A stretch of 44,607 nucleotides of DNA from Nemertoderma westbladi (taxonomy: Eukaryota > Animalia > Xenacoelomorpha). Below, one piece after another: positions 1-23,089 of this stretch. The notes beneath the pieces are model-generated. The model was not told the origin of the DNA. It searched no databases and saw only the letters and a list, made by a program, of their open reading frames with translations. The stretch is from positions 1 to 44,607 of the forward strand of contig JAUCBJ010005452.1 of assembly GCA_032718475.1 (NCBI GenBank), written 5' to 3'. A program made the position numbers and the translations under genes. The stretch's first letter is position 1. Each line of letters opens with the position of its first letter.

Positions 1-319
1 AAATTAAACCGTCGAACCCAATCTCCCGGGAATATCCAGCGGGTGAATGGTCGCGCACGGATTGGTTTCGACTAGTGTAGTGAATCAAATACTTGTCATA
101 GGCTAAAAAGCGATTTAATATCTAGAAGACATCTTAATTTGGCGGGTTAAACTGCCAAAGGTCTGAAAGCGCGAACAACTTGCTCATAAATCGCCCCCAG
201 TCCATTGAATGTGCCCAAATCCCATGTTCCCGCACCCAGTAGTGATATCGGAATATTCATTTAAAATAAATCCAAAAAATATTCAACTCGCGTTAAGAAA
301 AGTTGAAATACCGCGAACA
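1..319 (-). repeat. 3' LTR of element A (partial)
   Basis: On the minus strand the purine tract TTGGGGGGGAC is followed directly by TGTTCGCGG (starting at 319); ATTAAA lies downstream. No second copy is in the window to confirm it. Confidence 0.65.
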
Positions 320-330
320 GTCCCCCCCAA
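320..330 (-). promoter_or_regulatory. Polypurine tract of element A
   Basis: Reverse complement TTGGGGGGGAC immediately before TGT, the usual Bel/Pao PPT-LTR junction. Confidence 0.65.
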
Positions 331-483: not shown

Positions 484-3084
484 CTATTTCTTACTCTGAT
501 ACGCCTTTCTCCTCTTCGCCCGTCGACTCTCATCGATCGCCAGTGCTGGTAGGGGAGCATCAAAGTCCATCGTGAGCATTGCTTCAGCTTGTCTCCTGGC
601 GGCTCTTCCCTTCGATGGTAGTGGGATCATATCCGTCCGTCTCTCCAACTCGGTGGTGCGTGCCTCTGGGAACCACTTTCCGTCACCGAACTCTTCCTTA
701 TATGAATATAAACGCCTAAGGATCTCGAATGGGCCGAATAATCCAGCGCTTAATAAAAGGTACACGTAATTCAATGGTAGCATCGCTGTCGTATGGAGGC
801 GTTCTGGGAACGAAAAGTACCCGCACGCCATCTCTTGCGCAATATTTCGAGCGCTTCTCCGCACTTTGGTCTTTACGTGGTTATTGGCGTAGGTTTCAAA
901 CATAACCATATTTCCCATAGCGGTTACATCCTTCGTAGGACACTTTATATTATAACGGGGGCTTGCGGAATGTCCATGGAAGCCGCATTCTGTGCAGAGG
1001 TTGTAAAGGGTTGGACAAACCGATACATCGTGGCCCGATGTTGCGCAATAGGGACAGTAGAGTATCCCAAGGAGCTGGAGGCATGAATCGGTAACCCGAT
1101 TTCTCTTTCCGCGTGGGCACTGCTCCGAACCGCAGTTTCCGCACACCTCTAGTTGTATCTCCCGACCGAAGAATATCGGAATCGGGACGCCGGCGTAATA
1201 CTCAAGTCATCGGTCGCTTTTGGGAATATTCGCCGTGGCTGGTAGCCCGCGAAAGGCTGGGCTTTGGCGTAGTATGTTCTCGTTTCGATAACTTTCTTTA
1301 TACCCTGCCGGTCGCATCCCGGGCGCCCGTTTCTGGCGGTGGATCCATTCGGTCTGCTCGGCGTACCATCGGGTAAGTCGCATAGGGTCTTGTGGAATGG
1401 AAGGGGTCGTTGCCACAGCTGGTCGGCGAAGAGGTGCCGGGGCGTTCGACGGAGGAATACTGAGGAGATCTACGGGAGTCGGAGCAAAGCTGGGCCCCTT
1501 AGCAACCTGTATCACTGAGCGGGTCCGTTGGGTGCTGGTACTCGGGATCTCCAAAGACCAGTCTTCTCCCCCCGGGAATGGATATGGAGACAACATCTGA
1601 CATATGTCGCCGAAGTCATTCAACGCGAAGGTAGTTACTAGCTCCCTAGCGGGACTACCGGAGCCAAGTGGGGTGGATATGCCTGCTTCCATCGCAGGTT
1701 CGGCCGAGGCAACCCGTTTGACGGCCGGTTCGTACGCGACTTCCGGATCGAGTTGTCGCTTTGGGGTGGACAGTAGAACACCTTCCTGTAGCCATAATTC
1801 TTCCCCATCCGAAGATATCAGAGGTTCCTCCGCACCGAGGAGATCAGCAATCGTAGGGATGTCAAACGGTCCATTCTCGTCCCAGGATGCGATGACGGTG
1901 AGCGTTTTTGTCTCTCCCAGTGGAATATTCTCTACTGCTTTGAACGCGTGGTCGATAACTTCGTTCCACTCATAGTCGGTAAAGGACCTAGTAACCGCCT
2001 TAATGAGGCTATCAAGAGTCTTACAGATGAACTTGGCTACTGTGTATGATTCCATAACGACGTAGATATAGTTCCGTCGATCCGGATTCTCCCACTTGTG
2101 GTGGATCGTCCACTTTCTTTCTACGTCCTTCCAGCAACTCTCTCGCTCACTCTTTATTTCTAATTCCGGGTACCCACCATATATCTTATTATAATCCTGG
2201 AATTTCTGGGGTTTAAAGTCTATACCGCCGTTTAGCACTGCGAGGTAGCCAATACCGGATTTCGTCTGTCTCACCTCTCGGAATCCTTGCATGAATTCTG
2301 CGGATCGCAACCAGGCTAGCAGTGTTTGGATGTCGACGCAATGACTAATGGCATTGAGATCTTCTCAACGGTTTCTTCCGAAAGGAGCGTTAGCGTAGTC
2401 GTTTCGGACGTCCGCCTTTATATCCGACCCGATTTTAATGACATCGAAATCAAATAGGATCTGTTGGATCTCAGGTGGTAATAGCCAGATCGCTCCGGCT
2501 GTCCGCACCTCCTGTTTGGGTGTCGGGAATATTCGACATATCAACACCAAACCGTCTAGGGTTCCGAGGATGACGACCAAGGATCGACTGTATTCCTTCA
2601 TCCCATACTTCTCCTGGTAGTCGTCGCGATTCTGGATAATTGATATACGTTCCTCTCGCAGCATTGCCATACACTCCGCTAGGTTTCCCCAGTGGGTGAG
2701 GTACATACTCTTGTCGTCGACAAAACTTTGGCATCGCGCCGACGTAATCGCTTTCGAGGTGGGCGTCGCGTTTCCCTCGTTGTCGTATATCAAACATCGG
2801 GATTTGTAGACGCTTTTCCGGAACGTTTCCCAGAACGACAACTCCTCTCCTCCGGTTGCCTTTGCATTCCGAGTTCTTTTCAGTCTCGTACTAACATCGG
2901 TCAACCAGAGTTCTCGTAGATTACGGGAATCCGGTCCCTCTCGCCCGGAGAATTTAATGATTCGCACATTCTCAGCTATCAGGGCATTCCATTCTGTATC
3001 AAAGTTAGGAGATCCAGGCTGTGGATATTCCAGTGAATCGAGTGTATTACGTATTTCGCCGAGAATTTGGCGATTTGGGTCCAT
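484..3084 (-). pseudogene. Accessory ORF3 of element A: DEDDy (WRN/EXD/Mut-7-like) 3'-5' exonuclease plus C-terminal CCHC zinc knuckles; 867 codons with two in-frame TGA
   Basis: ORFs 2365..3084, 1207..2310 and 484..1146 share one frame, separated only by TGA at 2365-2367 and 1207-1209. Motifs: LIYDNEG (ExoI DxE), LPPEIQQILFDFDVIKIGSDIKAD (ExoII), CVDIQTL, KSGIGYLA, W..YVVMES (ExoIII-like), CPYCATSGHDVSVC (CX2CX4HX4C), CTECGFHGH. Confidence 0.75.
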
Positions 3085-3282
3085 ATTTTCAATTATGTCT
3101 ATTGCAAATTTAAGTAAGTTAATTATAAATCTAGAAAGTTTGATTCTATAGTGACTGCAGAATAATTCAGTTTATTTGTAATTCCGTTTATTAATTATTA
3201 TTGCTATATAGGCATCTACCTTCTTATTGCTACTACATTCGGTATTTACAGTTACTATAGCTATACATTAATATCCAACCAG

Positions 3283-3645
3283 TTTTTGACTTTTTATGTC
3301 CTCTTCTTTTTCCAATTCTTTTCCTTTCTACATTTTATACATTTTTTTGTCTTTTTTCACTTCTCATTTATTACTCATTTCACATTTCATTTTTTCATCA
3401 CATTTCATCATTTATTTCCACATTTCATCATTTATTTCCACCATTTTTTACACATTTCATTTATTTCCATTTCATCATTGTGTTATAGCCCCCCGGCTAT
3501 CATCATTTGTTATAAGCGCAGCACCAGGGTGCGCATCATTACATTTTCATCATCATACGCGCGTCATCATTCAGTTTATAGTAGGGTTGTCTGTTTCTTT
3601 TCATCATTTCCAACTACATTCAACCATCTTCTTTGGTAAATTTTC
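3283..3645. repeat. T-rich low-complexity tract (CATTTCATCA-like units)
   Basis: Repeated cattt/catttcatca/tttttca motifs; A-rich on the element's sense strand. Confidence 0.8.
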
Positions 3646-3648
3646 GTT

Positions 3649-4078
3649 GTGGAAGGGGTGTTACGCGGCAATCTGGGATCTACAGCTGGGCTAGTTACAC
3701 CGCCTACGCCCCAAACTGCACACGTAACGGACAATGAAGATGCTGGAAGTGAAGTCACGTGGAATGCACCAGGGACCCACCAGAATAACACTCCCAACAA
3801 CATAAATCTCAGCCGACGAAGTCATGTGGGATGGGGTTACGCAACATTCTGGGATCTACAGCTGGACTAGTTACACCGCCTATGCGCCAAAATCCACGCA
3901 ATGGTCCCACCAGAATAACGCGACTGAGAAACATAAAACCTCTATCGACGAAGTCATGTGGATGCACCATGGACCCACCAGAATAACGGGATAGAGGGGG
4001 TGTTGTGCGGCAATCCGGGATCTACAGCTGGACTAGTTACACCGCGTATGCCCCGAACTGCGCACGCAACGGACAACA
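3649..4078. repeat. Imperfect ~170-bp tandem repeat (about 2.5 units) in the pol-ORF3 spacer
   Basis: Core GGGATCTACAGCTGG(G/A)CTAGTTACACCGC near 3676, 3851 and 4017; CCCACCAGAATAAC near 3776, 3906 and 3974. Confidence 0.85.
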
Positions 4079-7000
4079 AAATACAACACAATGGATACAA
4101 TGAATTCCACTTCAAATCTTTACCATTTCCAATAATCCAATGTCGTTGGTCCTGATGACCAAAATCAGGGTAAACAATTCATAAACTACCCTGCGTCAGT
4201 CGAAACATCTGCAGGGTGATGCTGGACTCCACATAACACACGAGGAAACACAAATACCATTGCGTGGTTACAGTTGGTTTAAGGGGGGTCCATTATTCAT
4301 TGTCAGTAAATCACATTTTAAAGAGTTTGTCAACAGGATGAGAAGGGTTTAAATGGGTTTAGCATTGTCACCAATGTCTGCAGCAGGATCCTGAGTAGGG
4401 AACTTATCACCTCTCTTGGAGTAACCGCTGTCATTGCCTTCGAGAAGGCACAGCCTCCGGATAGGGCGTTGGTAGCGGCCCTTAGCCGTTCGTATCGTCA
4501 CAGTTCTCGCAAGTCCGTCTTTACTTGGGTTTATTGCCACAATTAGCGCCACAGCGGTCTTTAAGGTCTTCCTTAACCAACACCATGTTGCCAACTGCGA
4601 TGTTCCTGTAGGTGTTGTTCCACTTCCTCCTGGTCTGGAGGGTTATGAGGTACTCTTGGGCCCAGATTCTCCACCAATGCGCTGCCAACGCTTGGGCCTT
4701 CTTCCAATTGGTATGTCTCGCAAAATCGTTGGGATCTGGGAACATCGCCTCTGGAAGAATGTTGGTTTTGGGTCTTCCGAGTAGATGGTTAGGTGTAAGA
4801 GGCTCCAGATCTGTGGGGTCGTCGTGAATAGGTACGATGGGCCGGTTGTTTAGGGTAGCCATGATCTTGCAGAATGTTGTGCGAAGGGTGTTGTGGGTTA
4901 CCCAGGTGTCCCCTAATGCGATGCGCATAGATCGTTTTACCAAGTCGATGAGCTTCTCCCATACCCCGCTCGTATGGGGTGCCAAGGGTGTTTGGAAGTG
5001 CCATTGTATATGGTGTTCCCTCCAGACTTGGGATGTGGTCTCTTCTGTGAACCATCCTCCGCCTCTCTAAGTTCTCTTTCTCCTCCCACAAAGTTTGTTC
5101 CATTATCGGAGTACATATGACGACATGTTCCATTGTTTGCCACGAACCGACACAGGGCGTTGAGAAATGCGTGTTGCGTAAGGTTCACTACGAGGTCTAG
5201 GTAGATTGCCCTAGACCTAAGGCATGTAAAGATGGCTCCCCAGCATTTGATGTTGGATCGTCGCTCGATGACTGTAAATGGTCCTAAACAGTCTACTCCG
5301 GTTACGTAGAATGGCGGGGAATCGGACTGCAGTCGCGTGGCTGGTAAGTCGGCCATTCTTTGTGTGAGCGGTGGCGCTAGATATCTTCTGCAGGGAAAAC
5401 AACGCTTTAACACTTTCCGGATCAGTGGCTGGATGTGGGTGATCCAATATCTTTGCCGTATATTAGCCATAATCCAGTTCTATCCCGCGTGATGGTTTTC
5501 CTCGTGATACTGTTGGATTAATATCTTGGCTAGTGTTGACGTTCCGGGCAGAAGCGCTGGGTATTTGACATCGTATTCAACCGGGGCGTTTGCCATCCGG
5601 GTATTCAGTCGAATCAGTCCGTCTTCTCCCATCATGGGTCTCAATTGGTAGACTGGACTGTCCGGTTTCAAGGTTTTGCCCGCACTGAGTTGTTCCCACT
5701 AATCGGGGAAACTTTCTTTCTGGACATATCTAACAATACACTTCTCCGCAATAATGAGTTCTTGTATACTTCATCGAACTATCGGTTTGTTGTCCTTCCA
5801 CCGCAGGAAGTTGCGAAGAGTTAAGATGTGGTGGATGAGACGTCTCATTGAAGAGGTTCGCTCTATCAATAGTTGTAAAGACGCCGCTGGTTGCGTGATA
5901 GTCGCGATATTATAGTGCCTGCCCTAGTCCTTTGCAGGCTCGGTCAGACAACTATATATCTCCACTGTGGCACTTCTATGGACTTTACGGATCCCCTTGT
6001 CGTCTTCGGAGTATTTTCCGCTATCTAGTTCGGGATCGAATCGGGTGCTCGAGGTTAATTGTGGCTGCTGTAGGAATTCCGGGCCTGTAAGCCAGAGTTT
6101 ACTTTTACCGAGTTGTCGTGGGGTGGCGCCTCTGCTCGATAAATCCGCTGGGTTTTCTTTCCCGTTTACATGGTGCCACTGTTCTCGGCCGGTGCACTGT
6201 TTTATCTCAGTGGCTCGGTTCGCTACAAACGTGGTATGTCGCCGTGATGGTGAGTGGAGGTAGTAGAGTACGATACTCGAATCGACCCAGAAATGCTGCG
6301 ATTTGATGGGGATTCATAAGTTCCGCATGATCATGCAGTTCTGCCTTACTGCCCAAACTGCGGCCTGTAGCTCGAGTCTCGGTATCGTTGCTACGAATTC
6401 CCCGGATACCGTCTTAGCCTTAGAGAATAAGAAGCTTGTATCGCCGTTTCCATCCTGACTTAAACTTCTTAGGAAGGTAACTACGCCGATTCCGGTATTC
6501 GATGCGTCAGAGAAGGTATGGAGCTGGAATATATCGGTGGGTAGTTTATCGAGGAAGAATGGTCGAGGGATCCGCATAAGATGTAGATGTTCGAGTTGTT
6601 CCGTCCACTTTCTCCATTTGGCACTGAGGTGTGGGGGAGTTCTTCATCCCAACCCAGTCTTTCTATCCACATTTCTTCAAATGATCAAATTCATTCCGGC
6701 CAATGTTACTGGAGATATGAAGTTTAGTGGATCAAATATAGCACTCTTTATAGACAGACATCCCCTTTTTGTCATGGGCTTGGGTAGGGGGTTATATTTG
6801 AAGATGAACTCATCCAATTCTATGTCCCATTCGATACCGAGTACACGGTGATCCACACCCTCGGAATACATTTTGTTGTCGTCCAGTCTGATTTCCTCTG
6901 GGAACTTTTCCATAAGTTCCTTATCGTGGGATCTAAACTTTACGAGAGGGAAGCCTCCTCTCTTTAAACATTCTACCATTCCCATCGCCAGCTGATATGC

Positions 7001-7623
7001 CTTGTCGACATTATTGGCACCGGCGCATCCGTCGTCTACGTAGAAACATCGTCGGATGGTCTCTATGACTGTCAGAGGGAACTCGTTTTCGCACATAGCC
7101 GCTGTTTTCTTCAGCATGTCACTACATGCCACCGGCGAGTCCTTAGCGCCGAAGATCCTGACAATCATGCGCATTACATCCACATCCTTCAAGGTGAGTT
7201 GACTTATCTCCTGTGGAGTTGATGTTTTATCTGTCCATAATATACGTAAACAGTCTGAGTCTCTTGGTAGCATTCGGACCTGGTGGAACATCGCTTTGAT
7301 GTCGCAGGTGAAGGAAATTCGGTTTTCCCTGAACCTGATCAACACGCCGATGAGTGTACTGTAGATGTTGGGCCCTGTATAAAGTTGGCTGTTCAGGGAT
7401 TCGCCCTGATACATAGCTGCAGCATCATTCACTACCCTGATTTTACCACCCTTCCGAGCTTCTACCACATAGTGGATTGGGAGATAATACGTCCGTCTAC
7501 CCCCTTGCAGTTCATTCTGGGGTACCATTTCCGCCAATCCATCTTCTAGATATCCTCTAATTACATTATTGTATTTCTCCTTTATCTCGGGTAGGTCGTT
7601 TAACCGGCGTAGGATCCCCTTAA

Positions 7624-9176
7624 CCCTATTAAACCCGGGGGGGGGTCAATATGACCCCCCCCGTGGTTTTTTTATTATAATTCTGAAACAAACGCAGTTG
7701 GGAATCTGAAATTTTATGACTTTTCCTAAAAATATATTGTCTTCCTAGTAGTGAAAACCGTTTTCAAAAATATTGGGTACTTTTCGAGTTATAGCACCAT
7801 TTTTTAGCCCTACTTTTGGCACTTTTTTTGAGACGTTTTTTGAAAATTACATTTCATTAAATATGAATTGTAACATCTCTAATTTTGATTTACACCGGTT
7901 TTTTGGTGTTAGAAATTTGATGGAATTCATATCAATTGATTTAGAAATTTCAAACTTGTATTTTTCGGCGGGTACCAAATTTTGGTGCCAGCACCAAATT
8001 TTGAAATAAGTCAATTTTGTAAATTGAACGTTTGAAACTTGTTTTTTACGCAATTGGGGTTTTTTGGGTTTCTGGATTCGATGAAATATATACGAGTTGC
8101 ACCAAGCGTATCAAACTTGTATTTTTCGGTGCTGGGTGCAAATTTTGGTGCTAGCACGAAATTTTGAAAATCCATTCAATAGATAAAATTGCTTGTGACA
8201 ATTTATTTCTTGCGTTTTAGAGGTTTATGGCTGTTCTGAATTCAATGGAAAATATAATTATCGAACTAGACATATCAAACTTGTATTTTTCGGATGTGGG
8301 TGCAAGATGTGGTGCTAGCACCAAATTTTGAAAACCATCAAATATATCAATTGATTGTGTCACCTTGTTTCTTGCGTTATACGGGTTTGTGATGGTTCTG
8401 AATTCAATGGAATCAGTAAAAATTTCATAAGAGTTCTCAAACTTGTATTTTTCGCCGGTGGGTGAAAATTGTTGCGCCAGCACCAAATTTTGGAAAATAT
8501 GCAAATTGATAAGTAGATAGTATCACCTTGTTTCTTGCGTTATACGGGTTTATGAGGGTCCTGAATCCGATGGAATCAATAAAAACAGCACTGGACATCG
8601 CAAACTTGTACTTTTTGGTGATGGGTACGAAATTTGGTGCTAGCACCAAAATTTGCCAAATTACGCCGAAAAATACAAGTAGCAATGATCTGGCATATTA
8701 GAAATGTATACCATTAGAATCAGCGCCCTCGAAAACCTGAAAATGTGAATTTATAGCATCGTATAAGTGAATTAAAAATTTTGTGTTCTAACTGAAAAGT
8801 GCTGGTTACTTGTTTTTTTCATTTTTTTCCTACGCAGAGAGGACTAAACAGCCATTTTTAGTAATCATATCATTTTTTAATATTTTCCAATGTATTTTGC
8901 ACCCCAGAAAACCTGTATTGAAAAATAATTAGCCGAAAATGTATCTTTCAAATTTGGTGAAAATTGTGCACTACTTGTAATTTTGGTGCTGCAATATAAC
9001 CACCCCAGTACATTTTTTCGAAATTTTTTTTTTTCGGTCGGATCCAGACAAGTGATACCTACGTACAAACAAAAAATCAGACGTTTTCGTAAATATTTGT
9101 AGATTTTAGAGGGGGGGGGTCAATATGACCCCCTCCCGGTATTTGTACAACATTTTATAGCCCGGTACTAATAGGG
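7624..9176. mobile_element. Non-autonomous piggyBac-type (TTAA) DNA transposon inserted in pol of element A
   Basis: TTAA TSD at 7620-7623 and 9177-9180; ends CCCTATTAAACCCGGG and (reverse complement) CCCTATTAGTACCGGG; subterminal palindrome GGGGGTCAATATGACCCCC at both ends. Removing it rejoins the pol frame (MALRRL/KGILRRLNDLPEIKEKYNNVIRGYLEDGLAE). No transposase ORF. Confidence 0.88.
7900..8660. repeat. Five ~162-bp internal tandem repeats with palindromic cores inside the TTAA element
   Basis: CAAACTTGTA at 7951, 8112, 8277, 8438 and 8601, each followed by a variant of AAATTTTGGTGC-TA-GCACCAAAATTT. Confidence 0.85.
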
Positions 9177-12100
9177 TTAAGCCTCCTAAGGGCCATGCCG
9201 GCATTATTCGCCATCGGTCTATCTGGGTCTTTCCACAGCATGGGCGAACACCAATGTCCGTCTTTGAAAGTGGCCTGATCAAGGACGTCGATACAATATT
9301 GATCTTCCTTGGACGGGTTCTCGTCCTTTTCAGCAAACTCTTGGGTCTCTAAGTTAAAGTACTTGGTCATTTCCTGCTGGGTTTTTTCAGTTTCTAGGAA
9401 TAAATCCTCGTCCAGGTCGGTGGCTGAACAGTAACCCACGGATGTTGCATTCTCTTTAATCTGGCATTTAGGGAGATATGTATAGGTGTCAGTAGTCTCC
9501 TCTTTGATGCCACATAATGTCCATCCCATGATGGTGCGTTCTGCATAAAAACCGTCGTCCGGCTTTACGGATCGGGTGACGTCTCCGGTTGGTATGTGTA
9601 ATTCCGGTGTGTCGAGTCCAATTAATAGGGTAATTCGGTTCACGTCCAAAGGCGGGCATCGTAGATCTACATCTTCCCGGTCTAGTTGTATGAGAGGTGC
9701 GTATTCAGATGATTGTCGGAACCGCACTCGCAGATCGGTGTGTACCAGAGCGTTCTTGATCGTCAGTTTGACTGTCTCGTAACCCTTCATAACCCCTTCC
9801 ATCTTGAGTTGTACCTCCCCGGACTCCACTTTTCTATGGTCGGTAATAGTTTGTATGGGCCGTTTGCAAGGTTCGTAGTCTAGGCCTAGTTGTTCGAGGA
9901 AATCCCGGTCGATGATGGTTCCGTCCGACCTGTTGTCAAGGAACGCGAGCGTTGTTAAGGATTTCCCGACCCCTTGAATTCTTACTGGGATCACTTTGGC
10001 GAAGACCATGTATCAGCAGTTTATAAGATTGATCGTAGCCGAGATATTTCTCACATATGATACATCGGTGGCAGTTTTAAACGGATTGGTTTCCTTCCGT
10101 TGAATCGTCCGGGTACCCTTAGAGACGTGATTCATTTCTCCTCTCCGTTTGGATTCGATCCTGAACGGGAGGGTGGTAAAATCGAAGTTCGCAGGGATGT
10201 GGAGGAGTGTGTGATGACGTAGGTCATTACAGACCGCGCAGCACGATCTTTGGTCGCAATCCCAAACATAGTGACCTGTTCCGAGACACCGGAAGCATCC
10301 TCGGTGTTTCATTATCGCCTCGAAGCGTGGGACGAGTTCAGCAAACTGGAACTTTCTGCAGAATTCCACCTTGTGTTTCTCTCCGCAGAAAAGACATAGA
10401 AGGGAGGTTGTGGTGCCTTTCCTCTCGGGTTCCCAATTCGCTAGATAACACGCCCATTCCTCGGCTGATGTCGGTTCCTCGTAGTCCTCATCGTCGGAAT
10501 CCTCGGCCATGGTGATGGCCATCGTACTCACCGGAGGGGGGCGGAATCTCGGTTTCGGAGTGGGTGCCCTGCTCCTGGAGTTGTTCTCTATTCCGTCTAA
10601 CTTGGAGAGACTTTGTTTGGAGAACATCGAGTCATTCATGGCTTCGGAGATATCATCTAGGAATGCCAACATTTTGAGGAAACTGGGATCTCGATCTGGG
10701 TGTCTGCGTCGGAGATCTACGCATTTATACGCCCACTTGCTTTGCAGCCATCCGGGGAACTTTCGGGCAATCTGTCGGAGGTTTAGAATGTTGTTTACTT
10801 GTTCCTCCTTATTTAATGGTTTTAGAGTGTAGTAGGCATCTTTCATGGAATCCGAGAACTCTTGGATATTCTGTGGGTCCCCTAGGGACCCAGCGTCCTG
10901 TATCAGTTTCTCGAGTGTCTTATTAATTATAGTTCCGATGTTTCTGTATCTTTTGTCTAGAGTTTTCCATGCGTCGTAGTACGCTTCGTGAGATCCTCCC
11001 TCGAAACATTTAATGATTCGACGTGGTTTGTCACCCAGGTATTGGGATAAATATACCAGTTTTTGTGCGTCGGTTATATCCGTTGACCCGATCTGAGCGA
11101 AGAACCGTTTCTTGAATCCGAGGTAATAGACGGGACCTCCCTCGAAGGTGCGGATCTCCATCTTGGGCATAGCCAGGCGGTTTTCCAAGGCTCAGATGAT
11201 GCCGACGTCGACCGAACTGGAATGACTAGGAGGATTATAGTTATTCACATTCTCTCCCATGCACGATGGATCGATGAGAGGTGGAGTTTTAATGATGATG
11301 CGGTTATGGATTTTCAGTGTGGATGTGAACGGATTGTTGGATCGAGGGGTGGCGTCCCGTTCCAAGTCCTTTTCAGGCTCGTACTGGGGAACGCTCGGTG
11401 CCGTGGGATTAGATGGGAAATAAGGTTCCTCATTCTTAAGCGTAACTGGTGGGGGGTGGAATACCGGTGCTTGTGCCGATAACGTAGACTGTATGGTAGG
11501 CGGGAACTCAGGTTTCGGGGGTTCCGCAGCCGGCGGTGTAAATGACTTTTCTAACTCCGGGACCGGAATTGGCTCATAGTCCTGTTCTATACCCCTTTCC
11601 CAGTTCTCGTATAGTTGAAGGTCCCATTCTATGAGTGCAGCTTCGTAGTCTGCGAGTTTAGCAATGTCCGCATTCTTTTTATGAACCAGAATCGCTTGGA
11701 CCTTGGTGTTCCGTTTACGCATTTCGGCCTCTTGTTTACGTATTTCGGCCTGTTGTTCGGCCTCTCGTTTACATCGTTCAGCCTCTTGTTTACATTTTTC
11801 GGCCCGTTGTTCGGCCTCTCAATTACATAGTTCGGCCTCTTGTTTACATTTTTCGGCTCGTATTTCGGCCTCTTGCATTTGTTGTTTGGCATGTATTTCG
11901 GCCTCCTGTTTATGTCTTTCCTCCGCCAGTGCATCCTTTTCAATTTGCAGTTGGACATACTCGTCTTCCATTTGAGCTTTAAGAGCCAATGCCCTCTGTT
12001 CTCGTAGCTGATCTCGGAGTGGTTGACCCCCTTGGGAACTGCGCGCTGAACCAGATATCTCGCTCCTAGTGCTGGAGTGCTGGTGCCTCGAGGACCCAGT

Positions 12101-12804
12101 TCTTTTTCGCTGAACCACGGTCCTGGTACCGGAGGTCCGTACCGATTCTGCGTCCGCCCTTTCAGTTTGTTTATAATACTGTTCCTCGTAGCCTCTTACG
12201 AGGCTGAGGGTCCTCCGATGTTGCTTGCGGAACTCGTCCAAATGTGCGACGTGTTCTTCGAGTCTGGGATAGTTACCTAGATCAGTTGCGGGAATGAGTT
12301 CCTGATATGCCTGTATCATCCTTTCGTATCGTTGTAATATACTTCGGATATTCTGTAATTGAGTCTGTATATCGCTGAGGGGAGTCTTGGTGCCCTTTAG
12401 CTGTTTTTCGATGCGGTGGTATGCTCAAGTCACTCCGCCTTTGAGAGCTCCCAGTCGACGAGCCATGTTCTTCACATTCGGTACCTCGTCGGTTTCCGAG
12501 TCTGTGTGGGGGTCCATTTCATCAGTATCGGAGACGTTATTCGTCGTCATTCTAGCGCCTCATTGATCGGTAGATATGCGATATCGTAAAATAGTTCTTC
12601 ATAGGTCTCATATTCAGCCTGGACTACCCGAACGGTAATCCTGAATCATCCAACGTTCGTTCCTTGTACTTCGACTTCGACGTGCCAGATTCCTGGCTCA
12701 ACTTGGATTATATCAATAGGTGTGATCGATACTGTTAACCATTGATACTGATCGATACCATTCCCTGTTAACGACTCTCTATATGTGATCTGCTCTACCC
12801 CTAT

Positions 12805-13455
12805 GTGTTCTACCCCCAATTCAATGTCTCCGCTCCCGCGATCTTTCACCGGGAACGACTCTAATAGGGCCTCTGAGTTGGTAGTGAACTTGGTCAGAGG
12901 AAAACCCCCTGTAGCCAAGCACTCCTGTAGGCCGTGAGCCACTTCTGTGGCTTGTTCCGCTGTGTCCTTGGACACCAATCCGTCGTCCATGCAGAAGTTT
13001 CTCAAGATGGACTCAATAACGTCTACTGGATACTTACCAATCTGGGCCGTTGCCGTTTTCTTTAGAACAAACAGCGTGCCGTTGGGACTATCGCGGGCAC
13101 CGAATATCCTGACATACATCTGGTATGTAACCACTGGGCCGGATAGGTCTTCATTCTCGAACCAGATAAATCTGAGACTATCCTGGTCCGCCTTGCAGGC
13201 TCTTACCTGGTGAAACATCGCCTCGATGTCACAAGTAAATGCGAATCGCCACTGTCTAAAGCGTAACAGTATCCCTATCAAATAGTTATTTAAGTTGGGA
13301 CCATCCATCAACTCTGAGTTCAGGGACATACCTCTATAGACTGCTGCGCAGTCATTGACTAATCGGACTTTGTCTGGTTTGTCAGGGTGAGTCACATAGT
13401 GGTGTGGAAGGTAATAAGTCTGGTCCGTCACTAAGTCCGGGTCCTCTACCTTCCC
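12805..13455 (-). pseudogene. Orphan Bel/Pao reverse transcriptase fragment (element E)
   Basis: YYLPHHYVTHPDKPDKVRLVNDCAA, GPNL, DIEAMFHQV, FGARDSP, FCMDDGL, GGFPLTKF; the sequence differs from the RTs of A, B and D. Confidence 0.85.
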
Positions 13456-16400
13456 AGCAACGTTTTCTTGCTGCGCAAACCACTTGGTTCGAAGTTGTAG
13501 CGTAGGCAGATAATGTTTTTCGAAATGGTCAGCGAAACGACGGGATAATAACTGCATAAGTTGCCAAGTTTGTCGGCAGTATTCGTCTCCGTCCGTGATT
13601 TCCGAGCGTGGGAGCATGGCTACAGGTTTCTTCAGTAGGAAGTGCGCGGGTGTTAGCGCTTCCAGGGAGTCGGGACTCGATGAGACTGGCATAAGCGGTC
13701 TCTCGTTGAGATAGGCGGCGATTTCCTCCATTAACGTCCGCAAAAGTTCGTCGGTGAGATACGCGCGGCACGGCACTATAAAGTGAAATGCGGTCTTCAC
13801 GCTCCTGATTAATCTCTCCCAACTTCCTCCCCACCAAGGGGCGTCGGCGGCGTTGAAGGTCCAGCTAGACGCTGTTACCCTTAGCTGACCGTCCACCTGT
13901 CTTTGATTCCAATCTTTGACGTAAGCCCTGATTTCATTGTTGGCACCAATGAAGTTCGTTCCCTTATCTGATCTCATCGTGTTACTAGTTCCAAAGCGAG
14001 CGATCTGTCGGCGTAAGCTCAATATCAAGCTATTGGTAGATAAATCGTTCACCATATCGAGATGGATAGCTCTACAAGTCATACAGACAAAGATGACACA
14101 CCATCTCTTGACTATAGTCCTAGCACGATATACTTCAATAGGGCTAAATAAATCCACACCAGTATTAGTAAAGTGTGGTTCATGTAAAGTGTAGTCCCTG
14201 CGAGACGTCTGGTGTTCCAGATTTCCAGTCTCTCTCTCTGATTTCCACAACAGACTTATTTGTGGCGGGGGAGTTTAGATCCACAGCGTCGTCTCCGGAA
14301 ATGTGTAGTACAGACAGATCTATCACGGGTTTAAATAACTTTGATTTACTCGTCCGAGTTTTAGGTTTGACTTTCTCCGCTCCCTTGGCTTGTCTAATCT
14401 CAGCCGTGGTAAGATGAGGAGGCCATTCATCTTCTTCTTTACTTAGGAAGTCAGGTCCACCCAACCAGTCCGGAGTATCTGTCAGTTCTTGAGGAGTTGC
14501 TCCTCTGGAGGCGATGTCGGCTGGATTAATCGTCCCAGGGCAATGTCTCCATTGATCTACATTAGTGCGACTAAGTATAATGGCTACTCTGTTGGTAACG
14601 AAGACGCTGAACTGACAGACTTCATTGGTTATATACTCCAAAACGAGTAAAGCATCAGTCCAATAGACAGTTTTCTCCAGTGGATAGTCGATCTGTTCTG
14701 TTACATTCCGGCCGATGGCTGTAGCGTATAGAGCCGCTTTTAACTCCGCTCGAGGAACTCGTAGCTTGTTGTTTATCAAGGCCTTAGAAACAACCAAGGC
14801 AACTTTAATTCCATCTGGAGTTTCAACCCTCAGGTAGGCTACTATACCTATTCCCATATCGCTGGCGTCTCCAAACACATGGAGTTGATAGGAATACGTG
14901 GGGAGAACATGACCAAAATATGAACGGGAAATCGTAAAGTTCTCGATGGATGGTAGAGAATCTTCCCATTTCATCCACTTCTTTAGTAGTTCTCCCTTAA
15001 GTGGATCGTCCCACGAGTGGTTTTCAAGCCACATTTGTTGCACTAAGCTCCGAGCAACCAATATAACTGGGCTAATAAATCCCAATGGATCGAAATAAGT
15101 GCTCAGGATACTTAGACAAATCCGTTTAGTTCGAACTGGATTATCTCGCTGTTTTAGCTGGAAAAACAGGATATCTCTCTCCGTGTCCCATTTCCAAACC
15201 AAGCATCTTGGTTTCTGGAAGATCGTCCTTGATTAGGTCCAGGTCTTTAACTCCTCGGTCCTCTACCGGGATCGATTCCAGAAACTCACGGGAGTTACTT
15301 GTGAATTTAGTTAGTCGAAATCCACCTCGTTTCAAACACTCTACCGTTCCCTTGGCAACATCAATGGCTTCTTCCACCGATGGGAGGGACTTTAAATTAT
15401 CGTCCATGTATATATCCCATTTGATGTTGTCGATAACTGCTTTAGAAAAGGCATCTCGGTTGTCATCAGCAGTGGTGCGCACCACTGAACAGGCGTTCGA
15501 GGGGCTCGAGATGATCCCGAAAGCCTGGATGGTCATCCAGTACTCCACCGGTTTTTGGTTGAGGTCTCCTTCAGGCCACCACAGAAATCGTAGGCTGTCT
15601 CGATCCCTATCCAGCGCCTTAACTTGTAAGAACATGCTTTCTATATCCGAGGCAAATGCGATCGAATATTGCCGTAATCTTAAGAGTATTCCCAACAAGG
15701 ATTGGAGTAAGTTGGGCCCCGGCAACAACTCAGAGTTAAGGGATTGGCCCATGTAAAGGGCGGAGCCGTCAAATACTACCCGGACTTCGTTGGGTTTACC
15801 GGGTTTGGGAACGTAGTGATGGGTTAGATAATACGTTCTCTCAGTTATGGGTGTTTCTTCTGGTACTCGCTCCACGTATCCCTTATCGATGAATTTCTTC
15901 AGCTGGTTCTTGTACATCTCTTTAGCTGAAGCATTTGCCGTAAGGCGCCGATGTAGTTGCGCGATTCTCTTCTCCGCCAAGGGTCGGTTATTTATAAAGT
16001 TGGGTTCTCGCCTTCGGAATGGCAGACCAATCTCATACCTCCCTTGATCTCTAAGGAAACGTGTAGTCGTTTCCTGGATCTGCTTGGCTCTTTCCTCCTC
16101 GACCGATAGTGCTTTGTCGTAGGAATTAGGCTCTACAGCTTCTTGAGTAAAGAATCGTACGGCGTGTTTGTCGCGAATCTTAGCGTTATGTCGATCTATC
16201 ACCTCATTTAGCTCGTTGTTGTAGTCGAGTTGTCCGCCATGATGGATGAGATGGCAAAGGTGCACTTGGTTTCTCCAAGCTTCACTTTCAGTGAGGAGGT
16301 CTATTGTATTTTCCTCATCAAATAGTTGGGTAATATTGTCGTTATCTGAGGAGTATGGTGTTCCCTCAGGTGTGATTTCTCCCTCACTGATTTATTCTTC

Positions 16401-19400
16401 CCATTCACTCACCTGATGTATTTGTTCAGTGGGTAATCTTTCCATGAGCGTTCTACGGGAAGGTCCAGTGAAGTACCAACCTACTCTAGTTCTTCCCGCA
16501 TAGGTTTGCAATGGTTGCGGTCGAGCAGGTCGTTTCTCTAATGTCTCAAGCACCTCATGCGCATTTTGGCCGATTAATATTTGCACCCCTGGGTAGTCGG
16601 TGTTGAATCTAGGGATATTATGTTGCTGGGTAAAATCGTCTTCATCCCAGTTGTAAGGCTCCACTTGGCTAGTAGCAAAGTTCTTTATCGCCACCATTTT
16701 TACCGACCTTACGCTATGTTCTCCTAGTTCATCCTGGGGAGTGGACAACGCACCCACGTAGTAATCTGTAGCTACTGTGGATTTCCAAACCTGCATAATT
16801 CCTGAAAGGTTCAACTTAGTTCGGAACTTGGGTTGTCCAGCAAAGATGTCTTCGGCTAGTTCTTTGTCGATGAATGTTCCTGTGCTGCCGGAGTCCAGGA
16901 GGGCGTTGACTATAAAACTCTTACCTAATCCGTGGACTCTTAGCTGAACTACGGGGAATTCCCGGATTCCGACGTTGGAAGTTGGCGCTTTCCAAGATGG
17001 TTGTCTGTCAGGAATAACCGGGTGCGGGTTCGTTATCGGTTTCAGTCTCATATGTAAGCGCTCGATACACCGCGGTGTTTATCAGATAACAGGATTCGTT
17101 TTCATCGGGGAATTCGTCCGTGTAAAATCCTTCCGTCTCAGAGCTGTGGTCAGTGTCATTCACATCACTGAATTGGACATGTAGTTCGGACTCACTTACC
17201 TGACTCGTGCTGTTTCTTTCAAATTCGGTGTGCAGCAAGATATGATGTTTCGCGCCGCACTTAGCACACCTCGCGTCGGAGTAACAGGTTCGCCGTTGGT
17301 GTCCTTGTCTGAGACAATTATAACACAACCGCTTATCCCACATGACTTCGCGTCTATCCTTTAAGGATTTCTTTAAGAATTCATCACACACACTTAAACG
17401 ATGGGGCCCGTCGCACAATGTACATTTTGGTTTGATGTTACTTACTTTACCTTGGGTAGTGTTGTGCACACTTGTTCTTTCCTCGGGCTTTCTTCCATGA
17501 ATTCTCTTAGGAGACATAGGAGGAGTTTTTGTTACCTGTTCTCTCCTGTCCATGGTTCGAGACTTAAATTTACTTACATCTTTAGGTGCTTTGTTGACAT
17601 AGTAAGATCTGTCGGTGTCTTTCCCGCTGTTCTCCTCTTGAGAGGTCTGGCTTTCGCCGTCGTCTGTATAACACACTGGTGTTACCTTTCTCCTAGAAAC
17701 GGGTTTTTCACTTACCTTATTTTCCAGTGTCTTCTCTCGGGACTGCTTTAGGAGCTGTAATTTTACCTCTCCATTTAAGAATGACATGAGATCAGCCATG
17801 GTAGGGTCTCTTTGTTGTTGTTCCATCATATATAGAACTCTTTTGTCCCAACGAGTACCCACTCCACCCTTTGGCAAGGTAGATGCTACAGCTCCAATAA
17901 CCATAGAACTCTGATATTCATGGGACTTACCTAGCCAATCTAATTGTCTACAGATCTCCTGGATCTCATCGGAAAATTCTATAATCCCGCTGCTAAGAAA
18001 CTTTCGGGGCGCTACCAATTTTGCATACAGATACCTAGCTATGTTAGTCCTATTACCATACCTGATGTTTAGTGTATCCCAAACTTGTCTTAATCCATCT
18101 GGATGTCCAATAAACTTTAACGCCATTAACTTGGGAGATCCTTCCAAGCACTCGATGAGGAATCTAAGTTTCTCTCCGTTAGATAGCACAGAGTTCTGTA
18201 TGTTATCTTTATAATATTCATTAAAAGGTAACCATTTCATATCATCTCCATTGAACTTGACGATCTCTCCCACCTTTACCGCTTGAAGGGCTTCGGTTAT
18301 AGCCATTTGAAGCGTAAAACTTTCTTGGGCCATCGTATTATTTAATATCGAGTTATTGGTATATATATTTCTCGGATTATGATCAGGTCTATATGGAATA
18401 TCATTATCAACAGGTTTATAATTACTCTTAATAGGGTTTATTATAGGAGTTTCTACTTCACTAGCAGTATAGATGCGTGTAGGCTCCACACCTTGCGCAT
18501 GAAATACTTTAGACCTAACAGGTTGACACATTGTTACAGGGGGTGGTGGTATACTCCTTTGTATATTTACTAATTTATCGCGTTCTAACGCGATACTCTG
18601 CTGCACTTCTTGCAACTCTAACCTACCTTCTCTTACTGTTCCCTTTAACTGTTGAACAGTCCCTTCCATCTCTCGGACCTGCTGGGAGGAACGCAAGCGC
18701 TGTTCCTCCAATTGTCCGAGCAGGAGATCCATCCCCCGCCGTCCCTCATCCACCCACTCGACCACCGAAGCGGGAGCCGCCAACATAGTAGCGGGTAGAC
18801 GAGGGACGACGGGCGATAAATCGTTGATGTCTCGCTCGGCGTCCAAGACTGGGACTGATTCTGGGGCTATTCTACTGCAAAGGGAATTTAGAGTTAGGTT
18901 CTGGAAGTACAGGTGTCTCTATCACAGAAGGGGTGGCTTCGAGCACAGGCCCAATTATTTCAGGCTCATCTACTATAGTAGGGAGTCTTTCTACTCTAAT
19001 AATTTGGTCTATGGGTTCTGGACTACCTAAGTCTACACTAGCTAGTTGCCTTCTCACAGCTGGGGGCAAATTAGGCAACTTCTGATGGTGGGGCATTCTT
19101 CTACGCCTGCTGGAACGAGATCTATTTCCTCCGCCTTCAGGATCTGTTGTATCGCCTTCATCAGATGATGTAAATCCCTGTCTCTTGGGAGTAGATCGAC
19201 TTATCATCTGCATCTGACTAGCTGTTCTCTGTTTATCTATGTAGTCTTGCTTCTCTTAAAGATTTTCCAACTCTAGTTGGGTTGTCTCTTCAGACGCCCT
19301 CCGTTCTGCTTCTACCACTGCCTCTGCCGCTTTTCTTTCTGCTTCTGCCACTGCTACCTTTCTTTCAGCCTCTGCCTCTGCCGCTGCCGTTGCCGCTTTT

Positions 19401-20887
19401 CTTTCAGCTTCTGCCACCTTTCTTTCAGCTTCTGCCACTGCCGCTGCCGTTGCCGCTTTTCTTTCAGCTTCTGCCACCTTTCTTTCAGCTTCTGCCGCCT
19501 TTCTTTCAACTTCTGCCGCTGCCGCTTTTCTTTCAGCCTCTGCCACTGCCGCTGCCGTTGCCACTTTTCTTTCAGCTTCTGCCACCTTTCTTTCAGCTTC
19601 TGCCGCCTTTCTTTCAACTTCTGCCGCTGCCGCTTTTCTTTCAGCCTCTGCCGCTGCCACTGCAGCTGCCGCTTTTCTTTCAACTTCTGCCACTGCCGCT
19701 GCTGCTGTCTTTCGGTCTTCTATTCGTTTTTTCTTTAATTGTTCTTCCTGTTCCCTAGCGATGAGGATGCTTTCATCAAATTTAGCCTGCTCTGTGGCTA
19801 ACATTTCCGCATCTAATGAGTCTAACACAAATTTGGCTCCCTCACTAGTAGGATGAAGTCCAGCTAGCCATCTCCTTAGCTCTTTGTCACCTATAAATCG
19901 TTGATAGTCCGACAGATAGATGTCAATGGTGTCCTTCTTCTGAGGTTTCTCTGATGTAACTTCGCTTTCCACCTGAGAAAAGGTAGCGTCTGTTGATTCT
20001 CCGTGGGTCGAGCGTTCAGTTAGTTGAATTTTCCATTGGGTCGTTCCTTGGACTTTAAGACTCACCCGTTGGAACCAAGTCTTTACGGCAACTTGCAACG
20101 ACGTGTCTTGGCTTCTCTTCGAGGCTTCCTCAAAGGCCGATAGGATTAGTCTGATTCTTAGGATTCGTTCTCGAACTTGATAAAGCAGCTCTCCCTGCTC
20201 TTGAGGTCCTTGGGGTTGTTGAAACAGTTGTTCCTCTAATCGCTCCAAAGAGCTGAAGAATCCCTGTACATATCCTGCTGCCGACCTCTTCCACACAGCT
20301 GGATCTCTAGTGTCCTTTACCACTCCCATCCTGTATAAGTCCTCCCAGGCAGCTTCCGATAAGTTAAACGGGAGTCCGGGTCCGGGGAAGTTCCATTGCG
20401 TCTCGACAATAGACTTCAGTTCCTCCATTGTGTATCCCACATAACTGTACTTGGTCGATCGCTTACTTCTCGCCCAATCGATTTGATGTTCCTCCACCGC
20501 AATCAATACCCTAGTGAGTACGGCTTCAGGAAGTATGAGAAGTGGATCCAAATAAAATGCTTCTGCCATCTTTGCTCCGCGCTCGGGTGTCAACTCCACA
20601 GCATCTGAACTACCGGAGCTATCGGGCCGCTGAGAAATAAGTTCTCGGTTCGGGTGTTGCTGCTGTTTAACAGCTGCCTCTTGGTCCCGCTTGACTTGAG
20701 CCCGAGTGCCTATGATAGACCTATGGTGCTTTACTAGCCTAGGGTCTGATACTACTACTGGAGGGATGACCTTTCTTACAGTAGGATGGGACTTGAACTT
20801 CGGTCTCAGATGTTCCGCACTCCTATCTGAATCGCAGACTGTTGTTTCTAGGAGACTATCTGACAGAGTTTGCTTTGTGTCAGCCAT
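13456..20887 (-). pseudogene. Bel/Pao gag-pol polyprotein of element B (stops, frameshifts, IN N-terminal region deleted, IN C-terminus truncated)
   Basis: Gag knuckles CTLCDGPHRLSVC / CYNCLRQGHQRRTC / CAKCGAKHHILLH; PR LLDSGS; RT IYMDD; RNaseH FGDAS, VPRAELKAA, NPADIASRG; IN GVDLFS, SDKGTNF, WERLIRSVK. In-frame TAA at 19256 and 16392 join adjacent ORFs. Confidence 0.92.
19300..19710 (-). repeat. Coding minisatellite giving an Ala/Glu/Arg/Lys coiled coil (AEAERKAAAA / AEAERKV) in gag of B
   Basis: Repeated GCAGAAGCTGAAAGAAAAGCGGCA-type units, in frame within ORF 19256..20887. Confidence 0.9.
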
Positions 20888-22133: not shown

Positions 22134-22804
22134 AGTTGAAACAGTTGTTCCTCTAATCGCTCCAAAGAGCTGAAGAATCCCTGTACATATCCTGCTGCCG
22201 ACCTCTTCCACACAGCTGGATCTCTAGTGTCCTTTACCACTCCCATCCTGTATAAGTCCTCCCAGGCAGCTTCCGATAAGTTAAACGGGAGTCCGGGTCC
22301 GGGGAAGTTCCATTGCGTCTCGACAATAGACTTCAGTTCCTCCATTGTGTATCCCGCATAACTGTACTTGGTCGATCGCTTACTTCTCGCCCAATCGATT
22401 TGATGTTCCTCCACCGCAATCAATACCCTAGTGAGTACGGCTTCAGGAAGTATGAGAAGTGGATCCAAATAAAATGCTTCTGCCATCTTTGCTCCGCGCT
22501 CGGGTGTCAACTCCATAGCATCTGAACTACCGGAGCTATCGGGCCGCTGAGAAATAAGTTCTCGGTTCGGGTGTTGCTGCTGTTTAACAGCTGCCTCTTG
22601 GTCCCGCTTGACTTGAGCCCGAGTGCCTATGATAGACCTATGGTGCTTTACTAGCCTAGGGTCTGATACTACTACTGGAGGGATGACCTTTCTTACAGTA
22701 GGATGGGACTTGAACTTCGGTCTCAGATGTTCCGCACTCCTATCTGAATCGCAGACTGTTGTTTCTAGGAGACTATCTGACAGAGTTTGCTTTGTGTCAG
22801 CCAT
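22127..22804 (-). pseudogene. Duplicated, truncated 5' end of element B gag ORF
   Basis: Matches the first ~223 aa of ORF 19256..20887 with two substitutions; ends at the duplication junction. Confidence 0.9.
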
Positions 22805-23089
22805 GTTTGATTGTACAGTTGAATGCCTACTACTATAACGACAGTTAAAGCAAGTCTAGTAATTCAGTATCAACTGTAAGCCTAGTAATTAATTACCGAT
22901 AATCTGTATAATAACATAACTCTGTATAAAACAGAGTTATGACTTATACTAAACACAATGAGATGGCTACTGATTTTCGTAAATAGCGCATTCTTTAGGA
23001 GATGCTTTATTATCTGTCACACTACTGCACACGACTTCACACTGTTTCACACTGATCTGCCGACCGTCACTGAATTTAACCATATATAA

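What the first reader, a model, noticed from the sequence alone, without database searches (positions are those of the whole stretch)
484..3084. Bel/Pao element carrying a DEDDy exonuclease + zinc-knuckle gene in the env position
Seen: three track ORFs form one 867-codon frame with two TGA stops, lying between the integrase end (4349) and a PPT/LTR junction (330/319), with acceptor-like AG sites just upstream of the ATG (3099-3100, 3155-3156). Established: DxE ... KxGxxIxxD ... W..YxxxD is the DnaQ/DEDDy fold of the WRN exonuclease, EXD1/EXD2, Mut-7/Nibbler and RNase D; several of these act in piRNA/RNAi pathways. Here ExoIII reads YVVME, so the last Asp is Glu. The C-terminus has one canonical CX2CX4HX4C knuckle plus two CX2C-type modules. 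Inference: a captured RNA-binding nuclease or pseudo-nuclease expressed from a spliced subgenomic RNA, possibly a suppressor of small-RNA silencing or a primer-trimming/proofreading aid for RT. Exonuclease add-ons may already be known in some nematode BEL elements, so novelty needs checking.
Basis: partly seen in the sequence, partly recalled or inferred. Interest (0 to 1): 0.85.

Follow-up and report, generated by a model that had tools for sequence, protein, structure and literature searches.

The report
BEL/Pao retrotransposon carries exonuclease-knuckle gene
A broken copy of a many-copy BEL/Pao jumping gene, likely from an animal, carries an extra gene where an envelope gene would sit, for a protein with the predicted fold of an end-trimming nuclease joined to three zinc knuckles; it likely grips and trims RNA ends to help the element against host silencing, a type of cargo already described in unrelated rotifer elements.

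Summary
3084-484 (-) is one 867-codon frame with two TGA stops, between a BEL/Pao integrase stop and a polypurine tract/LTR start. The N-terminal half has the DnaQ/DEDDy fold (best solved match EXD2, Foldseek E 2e-4, from a low-confidence model). Catalytic candidates are D101, E103, D225, Y341 and E345. The last-position Glu recurs in 2 of 3 nuclease-intact relatives, so it is probably a family trait. The C-terminus has three knuckle-type modules and a conserved helical tail. Three DNA runs hold about 800-1350 diverged contigs each on part of the ORF. Differences among copies are mostly silent (8 of 10), those unique to this copy are not (8 of 27): an element gene kept by selection, seen in a dead copy. 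One distant relative lies in an LTR-like layout. The splice claim is unsupported: the AG sites are at chance level and no RNA run was listed. DEDDy-like ORF3s are published for rotifer LTR elements, and this scan noted Rrp6-like ones in Gypsy elements on other DNA. I found none in print for BEL/Pao. Verdict: new variant of a known kind; function untested.

The parts
484..3084 (-). ORF3 of the BEL/Pao element: 866 codons plus stop, broken by two in-frame TGA codons
1990..2832 (-). DnaQ/DEDDy-like 3'-5' exonuclease domain (about residues 85-365). ExoI D101/E103 at 2784-2776, ExoII D225 at 2412-2410, ExoIII Y341/E345 at 2064-2050
2590..2775 (-). About 60-residue insertion after ExoI, at a site where relatives also vary in length
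   Evidence: alignment A2
2365..2367 (-). First in-frame TGA, inside the nuclease domain
1165..1887 (-). Pro/acidic low-conservation linker (about residues 400-640)
1207..1209 (-). Second in-frame TGA, at the end of the linker
940..1143 (-). Three Cys modules (C648-C715). The middle one is a canonical CCHC knuckle; the first lacks the His that relatives have
754..900 (-). Conserved helical tail of the knuckle module (F729, E730, A733, T739, G755, Y773, L777 invariant in 7 of 7 aligned sequences); no structural match found
321..328 (-). Polypurine tract
1..319 (-). Start of the 3' LTR (TGT at 319), running off the window; a second LTR-like start lies at 177
3085..4348 (-). Non-coding spacer between pol and ORF3: three ~83-bp direct repeats, then an AT-rich stretch (29% GC) with TATA-like and AATAAA words
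4349..7615 (-). pol 3' part: RT (YVDD), RNase H, integrase, DUF5641; 7 stops in the main frame and two frame changes
7616..9179 (.). Nested 1,564-nt high-copy insertion interrupting pol
   Evidence: joint 7615>9180 in run X1
9180..12517 (-). gag (DUF1759, triple Cys-His box) and protease; 4 stops; 5' LTR not present upstream

Best explanation
This is the third gene of a multi-copy BEL/Pao LTR retrotransposon, seen in a decayed copy, and it encodes a predicted DEDDy-like 3'-5' exonuclease joined to a triple zinc-knuckle module that likely binds single-stranded RNA and likely trims or holds its 3' end, most likely on small-RNA guides or tailed transcripts of the host's silencing pathway. Shown: position, frame, motifs, fold match, many copies, silent-site bias among copies. 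Inferred: it is made as a separate protein from a subgenomic RNA (splice or internal promoter not resolved). Inferred by analogy with trypanosome RNase D: the knuckles supply RNA binding and the nuclease the trimming. Weakest step: the target is host silencing RNA. The reason is that the knuckle module is kept in relatives whose nuclease is dead or absent, which fits a binding or decoy role better than a purely catalytic one. About 0.9 for what it is, 0.75 that D101/E103 are the true ExoI, 0.4 for counter-silencing as the job.
For: Element: BEL/Pao Pfam domains and triple Cys-His gag box upstream, same strand. Fold: Foldseek best EXD2, E 2.2e-4, and all rows listed are DnaQ-type nucleases, their complexes or polymerases bearing one. 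VIA-align best 6k17 Z 7.0, rmsd 6.1, 118 aligned. The 5-sequence profile hits Egalitarian E 0.008 and EXD2 E 0.055. Relative P0002 scores 0.94 with DNA_pol_A_exo1 clusters (34% of members carry it). D101 ranks 1 of 845 windows against the relatives' ExoI block (z 5.0), and still 1 with the D and E columns left out (z 3.7). Family: 6 representatives at E<=1e-3 plus 2 more proteins. The triple-Cys pattern is in 7 of these 8, and P0002, P0003, P0005 and P0009 hold both domains in one open frame. The knuckle profile hits LIN28 at E 2e-4. Copies: 801, 1353 and 1051 contigs on 1195-2830, no majority indel. Summed depth ORF3/pol is 0.89, 0.85, 0.53 (weak by the tool's own warning). Selection: 8 of 10 sites varying among copies are silent against 8 of 27 unique to this copy, Fisher p 0.008; neutral share 0.23-0.32. 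L001 has ORF, purine tract, TG..CA stretch of about 375 nt, TGG word, next ORF. TbRND knuckles raise RNA binding and cleavage (PMC7797062, passages).
Against: Pfam finds nothing in the ORF and the single sequence has no PDB match. The model is poor (mean pLDDT 44) and Z 7 is in the range the tool calls common. Full-length alignments and BLAST put residues 147-152 (no acidic pair) in the ExoI place, and the model was built on that register. ExoIII is Glu, not Asp. No listed contig spans integrase to ORF3. Only 40 of 140 difference rows were shown, chosen by the tool, and 3 rows seen only in run X4 were dropped (1 silent, 2 not); sites share ancestry. The catalytic codons and both stops are not among the rows shown, so their state in other copies is unknown. 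DNA context is known for 1 of 8 relatives, and its second ORF has no Pfam match. Nothing here tests substrate, and DEDDy enzymes also act on single-stranded DNA.
Confidence: 0.7

Rival explanations
1. Same gene, but the nuclease serves the element's own replication: it trims the 3' end of the genomic RNA, the tRNA primer or RNase H leftovers, and the knuckles tether it to element RNA in the particle.
For: Knuckles resemble nucleocapsid and LIN28 fingers. All four acidic positions are filled here and in P0002, P0003 and P0007. Rodriguez et al. propose 3'-end processing of element RNA for the rotifer ORF3s (PMC5408684, passages).
Against: The neighbouring intact BEL/Pao element has no open frame over 84 codons behind pol, so the gene is not needed for BEL/Pao replication in general. 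The nuclease is degenerate or missing in 5 of 8 relatives that keep the knuckles.
Confidence: 0.3
2. The protein is a pseudo-nuclease: residues 147-152 fill the first catalytic strand, the site is dead, and it works only by binding RNA, like EXD1, Maelstrom or Egalitarian.
For: Register chosen by MAFFT on full-length sequences and by tblastn. Glu in ExoIII. The best profile hit is Egalitarian. P0004, P0005 and P0009 lack the acidic set.
Against: The D101 block fits the relatives' ExoI far better (score 11.4 against -6.4). The invariant Phe lies 13 residues before the Asp in all 5 rows of A2. D225 and Y341 are kept.
Confidence: 0.2
3. It is a DNA exonuclease or proofreader for reverse transcriptase, acting on cDNA ends before integration.
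For: EXD2, WRN and polymerase proofreading domains share the fold. Dada and KolobokD DNA transposons carry DnaQ-type nucleases proposed to process DNA ends (PMC3706591, PMC9587614; passages).
Against: It is not fused to pol. CCHC knuckles point to RNA. Proofreading needs catalysis, which several relatives have lost.
Confidence: 0.1
4. The ORF is a passenger: a captured host retrocopy or a separate mobile element that sits in this copy and is not a working gene of the family.
For: No single contig links integrase and ORF in the listed pieces. No termini of the element could be paired.
Against: No introns or own termini seen. Cover is continuous from pol through the spacer and ORF into the LTR (30 of 30 bins in three runs). 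Silent-site bias among copies. No close cellular homologue among 1.84 billion representatives. LTR-like layout in L001.
Confidence: 0.06

Closest known systems
DEDDy-like ORF3 of bdelloid rotifer LTR retrotransposons Juno and Vesta, shared with Athena/Terminons (Rodriguez, Kenefick, Arkhipova 2017, PMC5408684; abstract, passages and section 3.1 read)
   Same: DEDDy-type nuclease gene in the env slot of an LTR retrotransposon; altered acidic set; no membrane domain; activity not shown.
   Different: The host here is BEL/Pao (Peptidase_A17, DUF1759, DUF5641, triple Cys-His box), not the dUTPase-bearing rotifer lineages. The motif is D-E-D-E, not DEED. It is fused to a triple CCHC module with a helical tail. 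Common descent could not be tested.
Trypanosoma brucei RNase D, TbRND (PMC7797062; passages read)
   Same: DEDDy exonuclease followed by an array of CCHC knuckles, which there supply RNA binding; appears among the fold hits.
   Different: TbRND is a cellular guide-RNA trimming enzyme with four knuckles and a 28-residue linker. Here there are three modules, a linker of about 280 residues, and a mobile host. No sign of orthology (profile E 0.4).
EXD2 / EXD1 / Egalitarian / Nibbler (Mut-7) / WRN exonuclease group
   Same: Best structural and profile matches; KxGxxIxxD and W...Y motifs.
   Different: Only 10-19% identity in the fold alignments; long insertion after ExoI; Glu in ExoIII; different partner domains. 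No tree could be built.
Cer19-ORF2 of C. elegans (PMC7084138; passages read)
   Same: Extra ORF with zf-CCHC signature between the LTRs of a nematode element, expressed and heavily targeted by siRNA. That Cer19 is BEL/Pao is recalled, not read.
   Different: The paper's main text never mentions an exonuclease (0 occurrences). Homology was not tested.
Dada (Laccaria, Ectocarpus) and KolobokD DNA transposons (PMC3706591, PMC9587614; passages read)
   Same: Transposon-borne DnaQ-type exonucleases.
   Different: These are DNA transposons; the Dada domain lies inside the transposase and KolobokD's is DEDDh.

Membership tests
BEL/Pao LTR retrotransposons (host element) | Triple Cys-His box in gag with HH in the third finger (as defined in PMC554778) | tested here: met
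   CX2CX3HX4C, CX2CX4HX4C and CX2CX4HH..H in the 10013-11191 frame
BEL/Pao LTR retrotransposons (host element) | gag-PR-RT-RNase H-IN order with Pao-specific domains | tested here: met
   DUF1759 E 3e-12, DUF5641 E 2e-13, Peptidase_A17 fragment E 0.011; YVDD; colinear with the intact BEL/Pao ORF at 37120-44607, 24-41% identity
BEL/Pao LTR retrotransposons (host element) | Two LTRs, primer-binding site, target-site duplication | tested here: inconclusive
   PPT and TGT start at 328-319; 5' end missing, 3' LTR cut by the window edge
DnaQ/DEDDy 3'-5' exonucleases | RNase H-like DnaQ fold | tested here: met
   low-confidence model, but all top hits are of one superfamily
DnaQ/DEDDy 3'-5' exonucleases | ExoI D-x-E and ExoII D | tested here: met
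   D101/E103 rank 1 of 845; D225. A rival register without ExoI exists
DnaQ/DEDDy 3'-5' exonucleases | ExoIII Y-x3-D | tested here: not met
   Y341-x3-E345; Glu also in P0002 and P0003, Asp in P0007. Filed as DEDDy-like (D-E-D-E), not canonical DEDDy
DnaQ/DEDDy 3'-5' exonucleases | Two-metal 3'-5' exonuclease activity | not testable with these tools
   needs an assay
Rotifer Juno/Vesta DEDDy ORF3 | Separate ORF between integrase and 3' LTR | tested here: met
Rotifer Juno/Vesta DEDDy ORF3 | DEED acidic set | tested here: not met
   D-E-D-E here against DEED in PMC5408684
Rotifer Juno/Vesta DEDDy ORF3 | Common descent with the rotifer ORFs | not testable with these tools
   their sequences were not returned by any search
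Rrp6/EXOSC10-type (exonuclease + HRDC) | HRDC domain after the nuclease | tested here: inconclusive
   no Pfam HRDC hit in the window ORF or 8 relatives, but Pfam also misses the nuclease; Rrp6 is second (Z 6.1, tied with EXD2)
env glycoprotein | Signal peptide or transmembrane anchor | tested here: not met
   the one hydrophobic window (2.1 at residue 168) is the nuclease strand pair; relatives peak at 1.1-1.8

The most novel reading that the evidence does not exclude
A previously undescribed, old family of retrotransposon accessory proteins (DEDDy-like D-E-D-E nuclease plus triple knuckle plus an unclassified helical tail) lets BEL/Pao elements attack the host's small-RNA silencing directly. 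Some lineages trim piRNA/siRNA or tailed RNAs with an active site, and others have dropped catalysis and act as RNA decoys: an element-encoded counterpart of Nibbler/Mut-7 and EXD1.
Probability: 0.25. Interest if true: 0.8.

Novelty: new variant of a known kind. Interest (0 to 1): 0.5.

Why it matters
It extends nuclease cargo in the env slot from rotifer lineages to BEL/Pao, with an apparently different nuclease and a new knuckle module, which suggests that LTR elements gain such enzymes repeatedly. The 2017 paper found no clear departure from neutrality in the ORF3s it cloned and left activity untested; here there is a first, limited signal of purifying selection among copies. Natural relatives with full, altered and missing catalytic sets give a ready panel for asking whether animal retrotransposons encode their own tools against piRNA/siRNA silencing, and whether Glu can replace the last Asp of a DEDDy site.

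Tried and rejected
No whole genome is held, so intact copies could not be sought. Pfam on the ORF and its three pieces: no family. PDB sequence search: one chance hit, E 0.23. Word-index homologue searches: none with the single protein; 3 with the nuclease profile, two of them its own members; none with the knuckle alignment, which searched only 1795-5000 aa and is uninformative. Sequencing runs: no RNA holder listed, which says nothing about expression. Splice acceptors: chance level. Viral and prokaryote contig scans gave no locus; one search reported 3 confirmed stretches but returned no locus. The knuckle-module model (pLDDT 60) had no fold match (best Z 2.2), which shows neither novelty nor difference; the Atlas gave zf-CCHC clusters under 0.9. 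No Rfam family and no tRNA. Rejected: D29-x-E31 as ExoI (rank 769 of 845); recoded or programmed TGA (gag-pol has 11 stops and two frame changes; ORF3's 2 stops fit that rate, P 0.14); a membrane protein. Literature: ten searches found no report of an exonuclease ORF in a BEL/Pao element. The library lacks most subscription papers and Repbase notes; Malik 2000 and the Terminon paper are not held; no supplements were read.

Full report
Observation. The minus-strand frame 3084-484 has 867 codons and two internal TGA codons, at 240 and 626; the other two frames have 32 and 40 stops. It follows the stop of an integrase frame at 4349 after a 1,264-nt spacer, and precedes a G-rich tract (328-321) and TGT at 319. 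The proposed acceptors exist as AG words. Acceptor-like sites in the 150 nt before the ATG are not above shuffles (2 seen against 0.54, P 0.09; 1 against 0.22, P 0.21), and equally good sites lie further up the spacer. No RNA holder was listed, so expression is open.

Host element. Upstream on the same strand lie DUF1759 gag, protease, RT with YVDD, RNase H, integrase and DUF5641. Gag has the triple Cys-His box that PMC554778 gives as the Pao/BEL hallmark (passages). The pieces are colinear with the intact 2,495-codon BEL/Pao ORF at the other end of the window. This copy is dead: 4 stops in gag-protease, 7 in RT-integrase, two frame changes, and a 1,564-nt insertion that contigs of run X1 join across. 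Its 5' LTR is missing; fragments of another BEL/Pao element abut at about 12,600. ORF3's two stops fit the gag-pol decay rate (4.9 expected, P 0.14), so recoding is not needed.

The nuclease. Pfam and single-sequence PDB searches found nothing. An exhaustive search of 1.84 billion representatives gave 6 distant relatives at 31-34% identity, and two more came. None has an informative name. A profile of five nuclease regions hits Egalitarian (E 0.008) and EXD2 (E 0.055) first. A model of residues 36-385 is poor (mean pLDDT 44), but Foldseek puts EXD2 first (E 2.2e-4), followed by RICE1, EXD1, Rrp6, trypanosome RNase D, Nibbler and polymerase proofreading domains. VIA-align agrees (EXD2 Z 7.0, rmsd 6.1, 118 aligned; Rrp6 6.1; Nibbler 5.8). 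The Atlas places the same region of P0002 near DNA_pol_A_exo1 clusters (0.94) and unnamed 213-aa eukaryotic clusters (0.95). The fold is therefore well supported although no single score is strong.

Catalytic residues. Two registers compete for ExoI. Full-length alignments and BLAST place residues 147-152, which have no acidic pair. The domain alignment places D101-N-E103 followed by a 60-residue insertion, where relatives also vary. Scoring all 845 windows against the relatives' 21-residue ExoI block ranks D101 first (z 5.0 against 2.3 for the rival), and first again with the D and E columns removed. I take D101/E103 as ExoI; the model was built on the other register and does not test this. 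ExoII D225 is present. ExoIII is Y341-x3-E345: Glu also in P0002 and P0003, Asp in P0007. So D-E-D-E probably is a family trait, although the state of that codon in other copies of this element was not seen. P0004, P0005 and P0009 have lost most acidic residues, and P0006 and P0008 lack the domain.

The knuckle module. A three-part Cys/His pattern is found in the window protein and in 7 of 8 relatives, twice in P0004. A helical tail with seven invariant residues follows. The profile's best solved match is the LIN28 knuckle pair (E 2e-4), then HIV nucleocapsid. The tail has no fold match. The first module of this copy lacks the His that relatives carry. There is no membrane anchor.

Is it a gene of the element? 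Three DNA runs (two samples) lay 801, 1,353 and 1,051 contigs on 1195-2830, mostly 85-99% alike, with no majority indel; a fourth run lays 4. Cover is continuous from gag to LTR, and summed depth over ORF3 is 0.89, 0.85 and 0.53 of that over pol. The tool warns that such depth is no copy number, the runs were found with this stretch, and no listed contig spans integrase to ORF3. Of 140 difference rows the tool showed 40; 3 seen only in run X4 were set aside (1 silent, 2 not). Sites where nearly all other copies differ from the window are silent in 8 of 27, as expected without selection (0.23-0.32). Sites that vary among the other copies are silent in 8 of 10 (Fisher p 0.008; 0.009 and 0.014 at two other cut-offs). 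This is a dead copy of a gene that was under purifying selection while the family spread. The sample is small, chosen by the tool and not independent. The one relative with DNA, P0004 on L001, is followed by a purine tract (2572-2582), a TG...CA stretch of about 375 nt, a TGG-led word like a primer-binding site, and an ORF running off the contig. That is an LTR-element layout, but its class is unknown.

How it likely works. Exonuclease plus CCHC array is the design of trypanosome RNase D, where the knuckles give RNA binding and raise cleavage (PMC7797062, passages). By analogy the protein likely grips single-stranded RNA and trims its 3' end. It is a separate ORF, so it is likely made from a subgenomic RNA. 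It is not required for BEL/Pao replication in general, since the intact neighbour has nothing like it behind pol. The knuckles persist in 5 relatives without a working nuclease, so binding looks like the core function. That tips me to action on host silencing RNA (about 0.4) over processing of the element's own RNA or primer (0.3), a pure decoy (0.2, overlapping with the first) or DNA proofreading (0.1). None of this was tested.

Comparison. DEDDy-like ORF3s are published for rotifer Juno and Vesta elements and Terminons, with a DEED motif; the paper says none had been reported in retrotransposons before and that activity is unshown (PMC5408684). Reviews repeat this (PMC5718144, PMC6431247, PMC6338049; passages). 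DNA transposons Dada and KolobokD also carry DnaQ-type nucleases. Cer19 has an extra knuckle ORF with no nuclease mentioned. PMC3315495 has no mention of an exonuclease either (term search). Ten literature searches found no BEL/Pao case, with the gaps listed under Tried and rejected. Earlier notes of this scan describe Rrp6-like and dead DEDDh ORF3s on other DNA, mostly in Gypsy elements (unchecked AI notes); sequence look-ups found no look-alike of this ORF.

Verdict. It is a real accessory gene of a BEL/Pao family, DEDDy-like rather than canonical DEDDy because ExoIII fails the Asp test. It works, by inference, like an RNase D with knuckles. New variant of a known kind; interest 0.5.

Noticed in passing
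window 7616-9179: Non-coding 1,564-nt insertion in pol with the same 26-nt self-complementary word near both ends and an internal 163-bp tandem array; summed depth is far above pol's. Looks like a nested high-copy non-autonomous element.
   Followed up: partly
window 177: A second TGTTCGCG start 142 nt inside the 3' LTR; contigs of run X4 end there with mixed flanks, and depth over 1-434 is over 20 times the internal depth in three runs. Possibly a related solo LTR inserted into, or sharing the start of, this LTR.
   Followed up: partly
window 3652-4076: Three ~83-bp direct repeats (72-88% alike) in the pol-ORF3 spacer, followed by an AT-rich stretch with six AATAAA and three TATA-like words on the sense strand; no Rfam match.
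   Followed up: partly
window 37120-44607 (-): Uninterrupted BEL/Pao gag-pol frame of at least 2,495 codons, open at the window edge, with no long ORF behind it.
   Followed up: partly
window 12646-24900 (-): A second BEL/Pao element with a 560-codon frame bearing Ala/Glu/Lys repeats ahead of gag, duplicated 5' parts (20215/22132, 21169/23937) and an integrase-to-RT rearrangement at 12646-14274.
   Followed up: no
window 35669-36440: 18 copies of a 43-bp unit, 96% matched.
   Followed up: no
L001 79-2025: Relative P0004 has a truncated, likely dead nuclease and a tandem duplication of the whole knuckle-plus-tail module.
   Followed up: partly
window 12517 and 3084 (-): gag and ORF3 begin with the same three residues (MDP) and nearly the same ten bases around the ATG; may be chance.
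   Followed up: no
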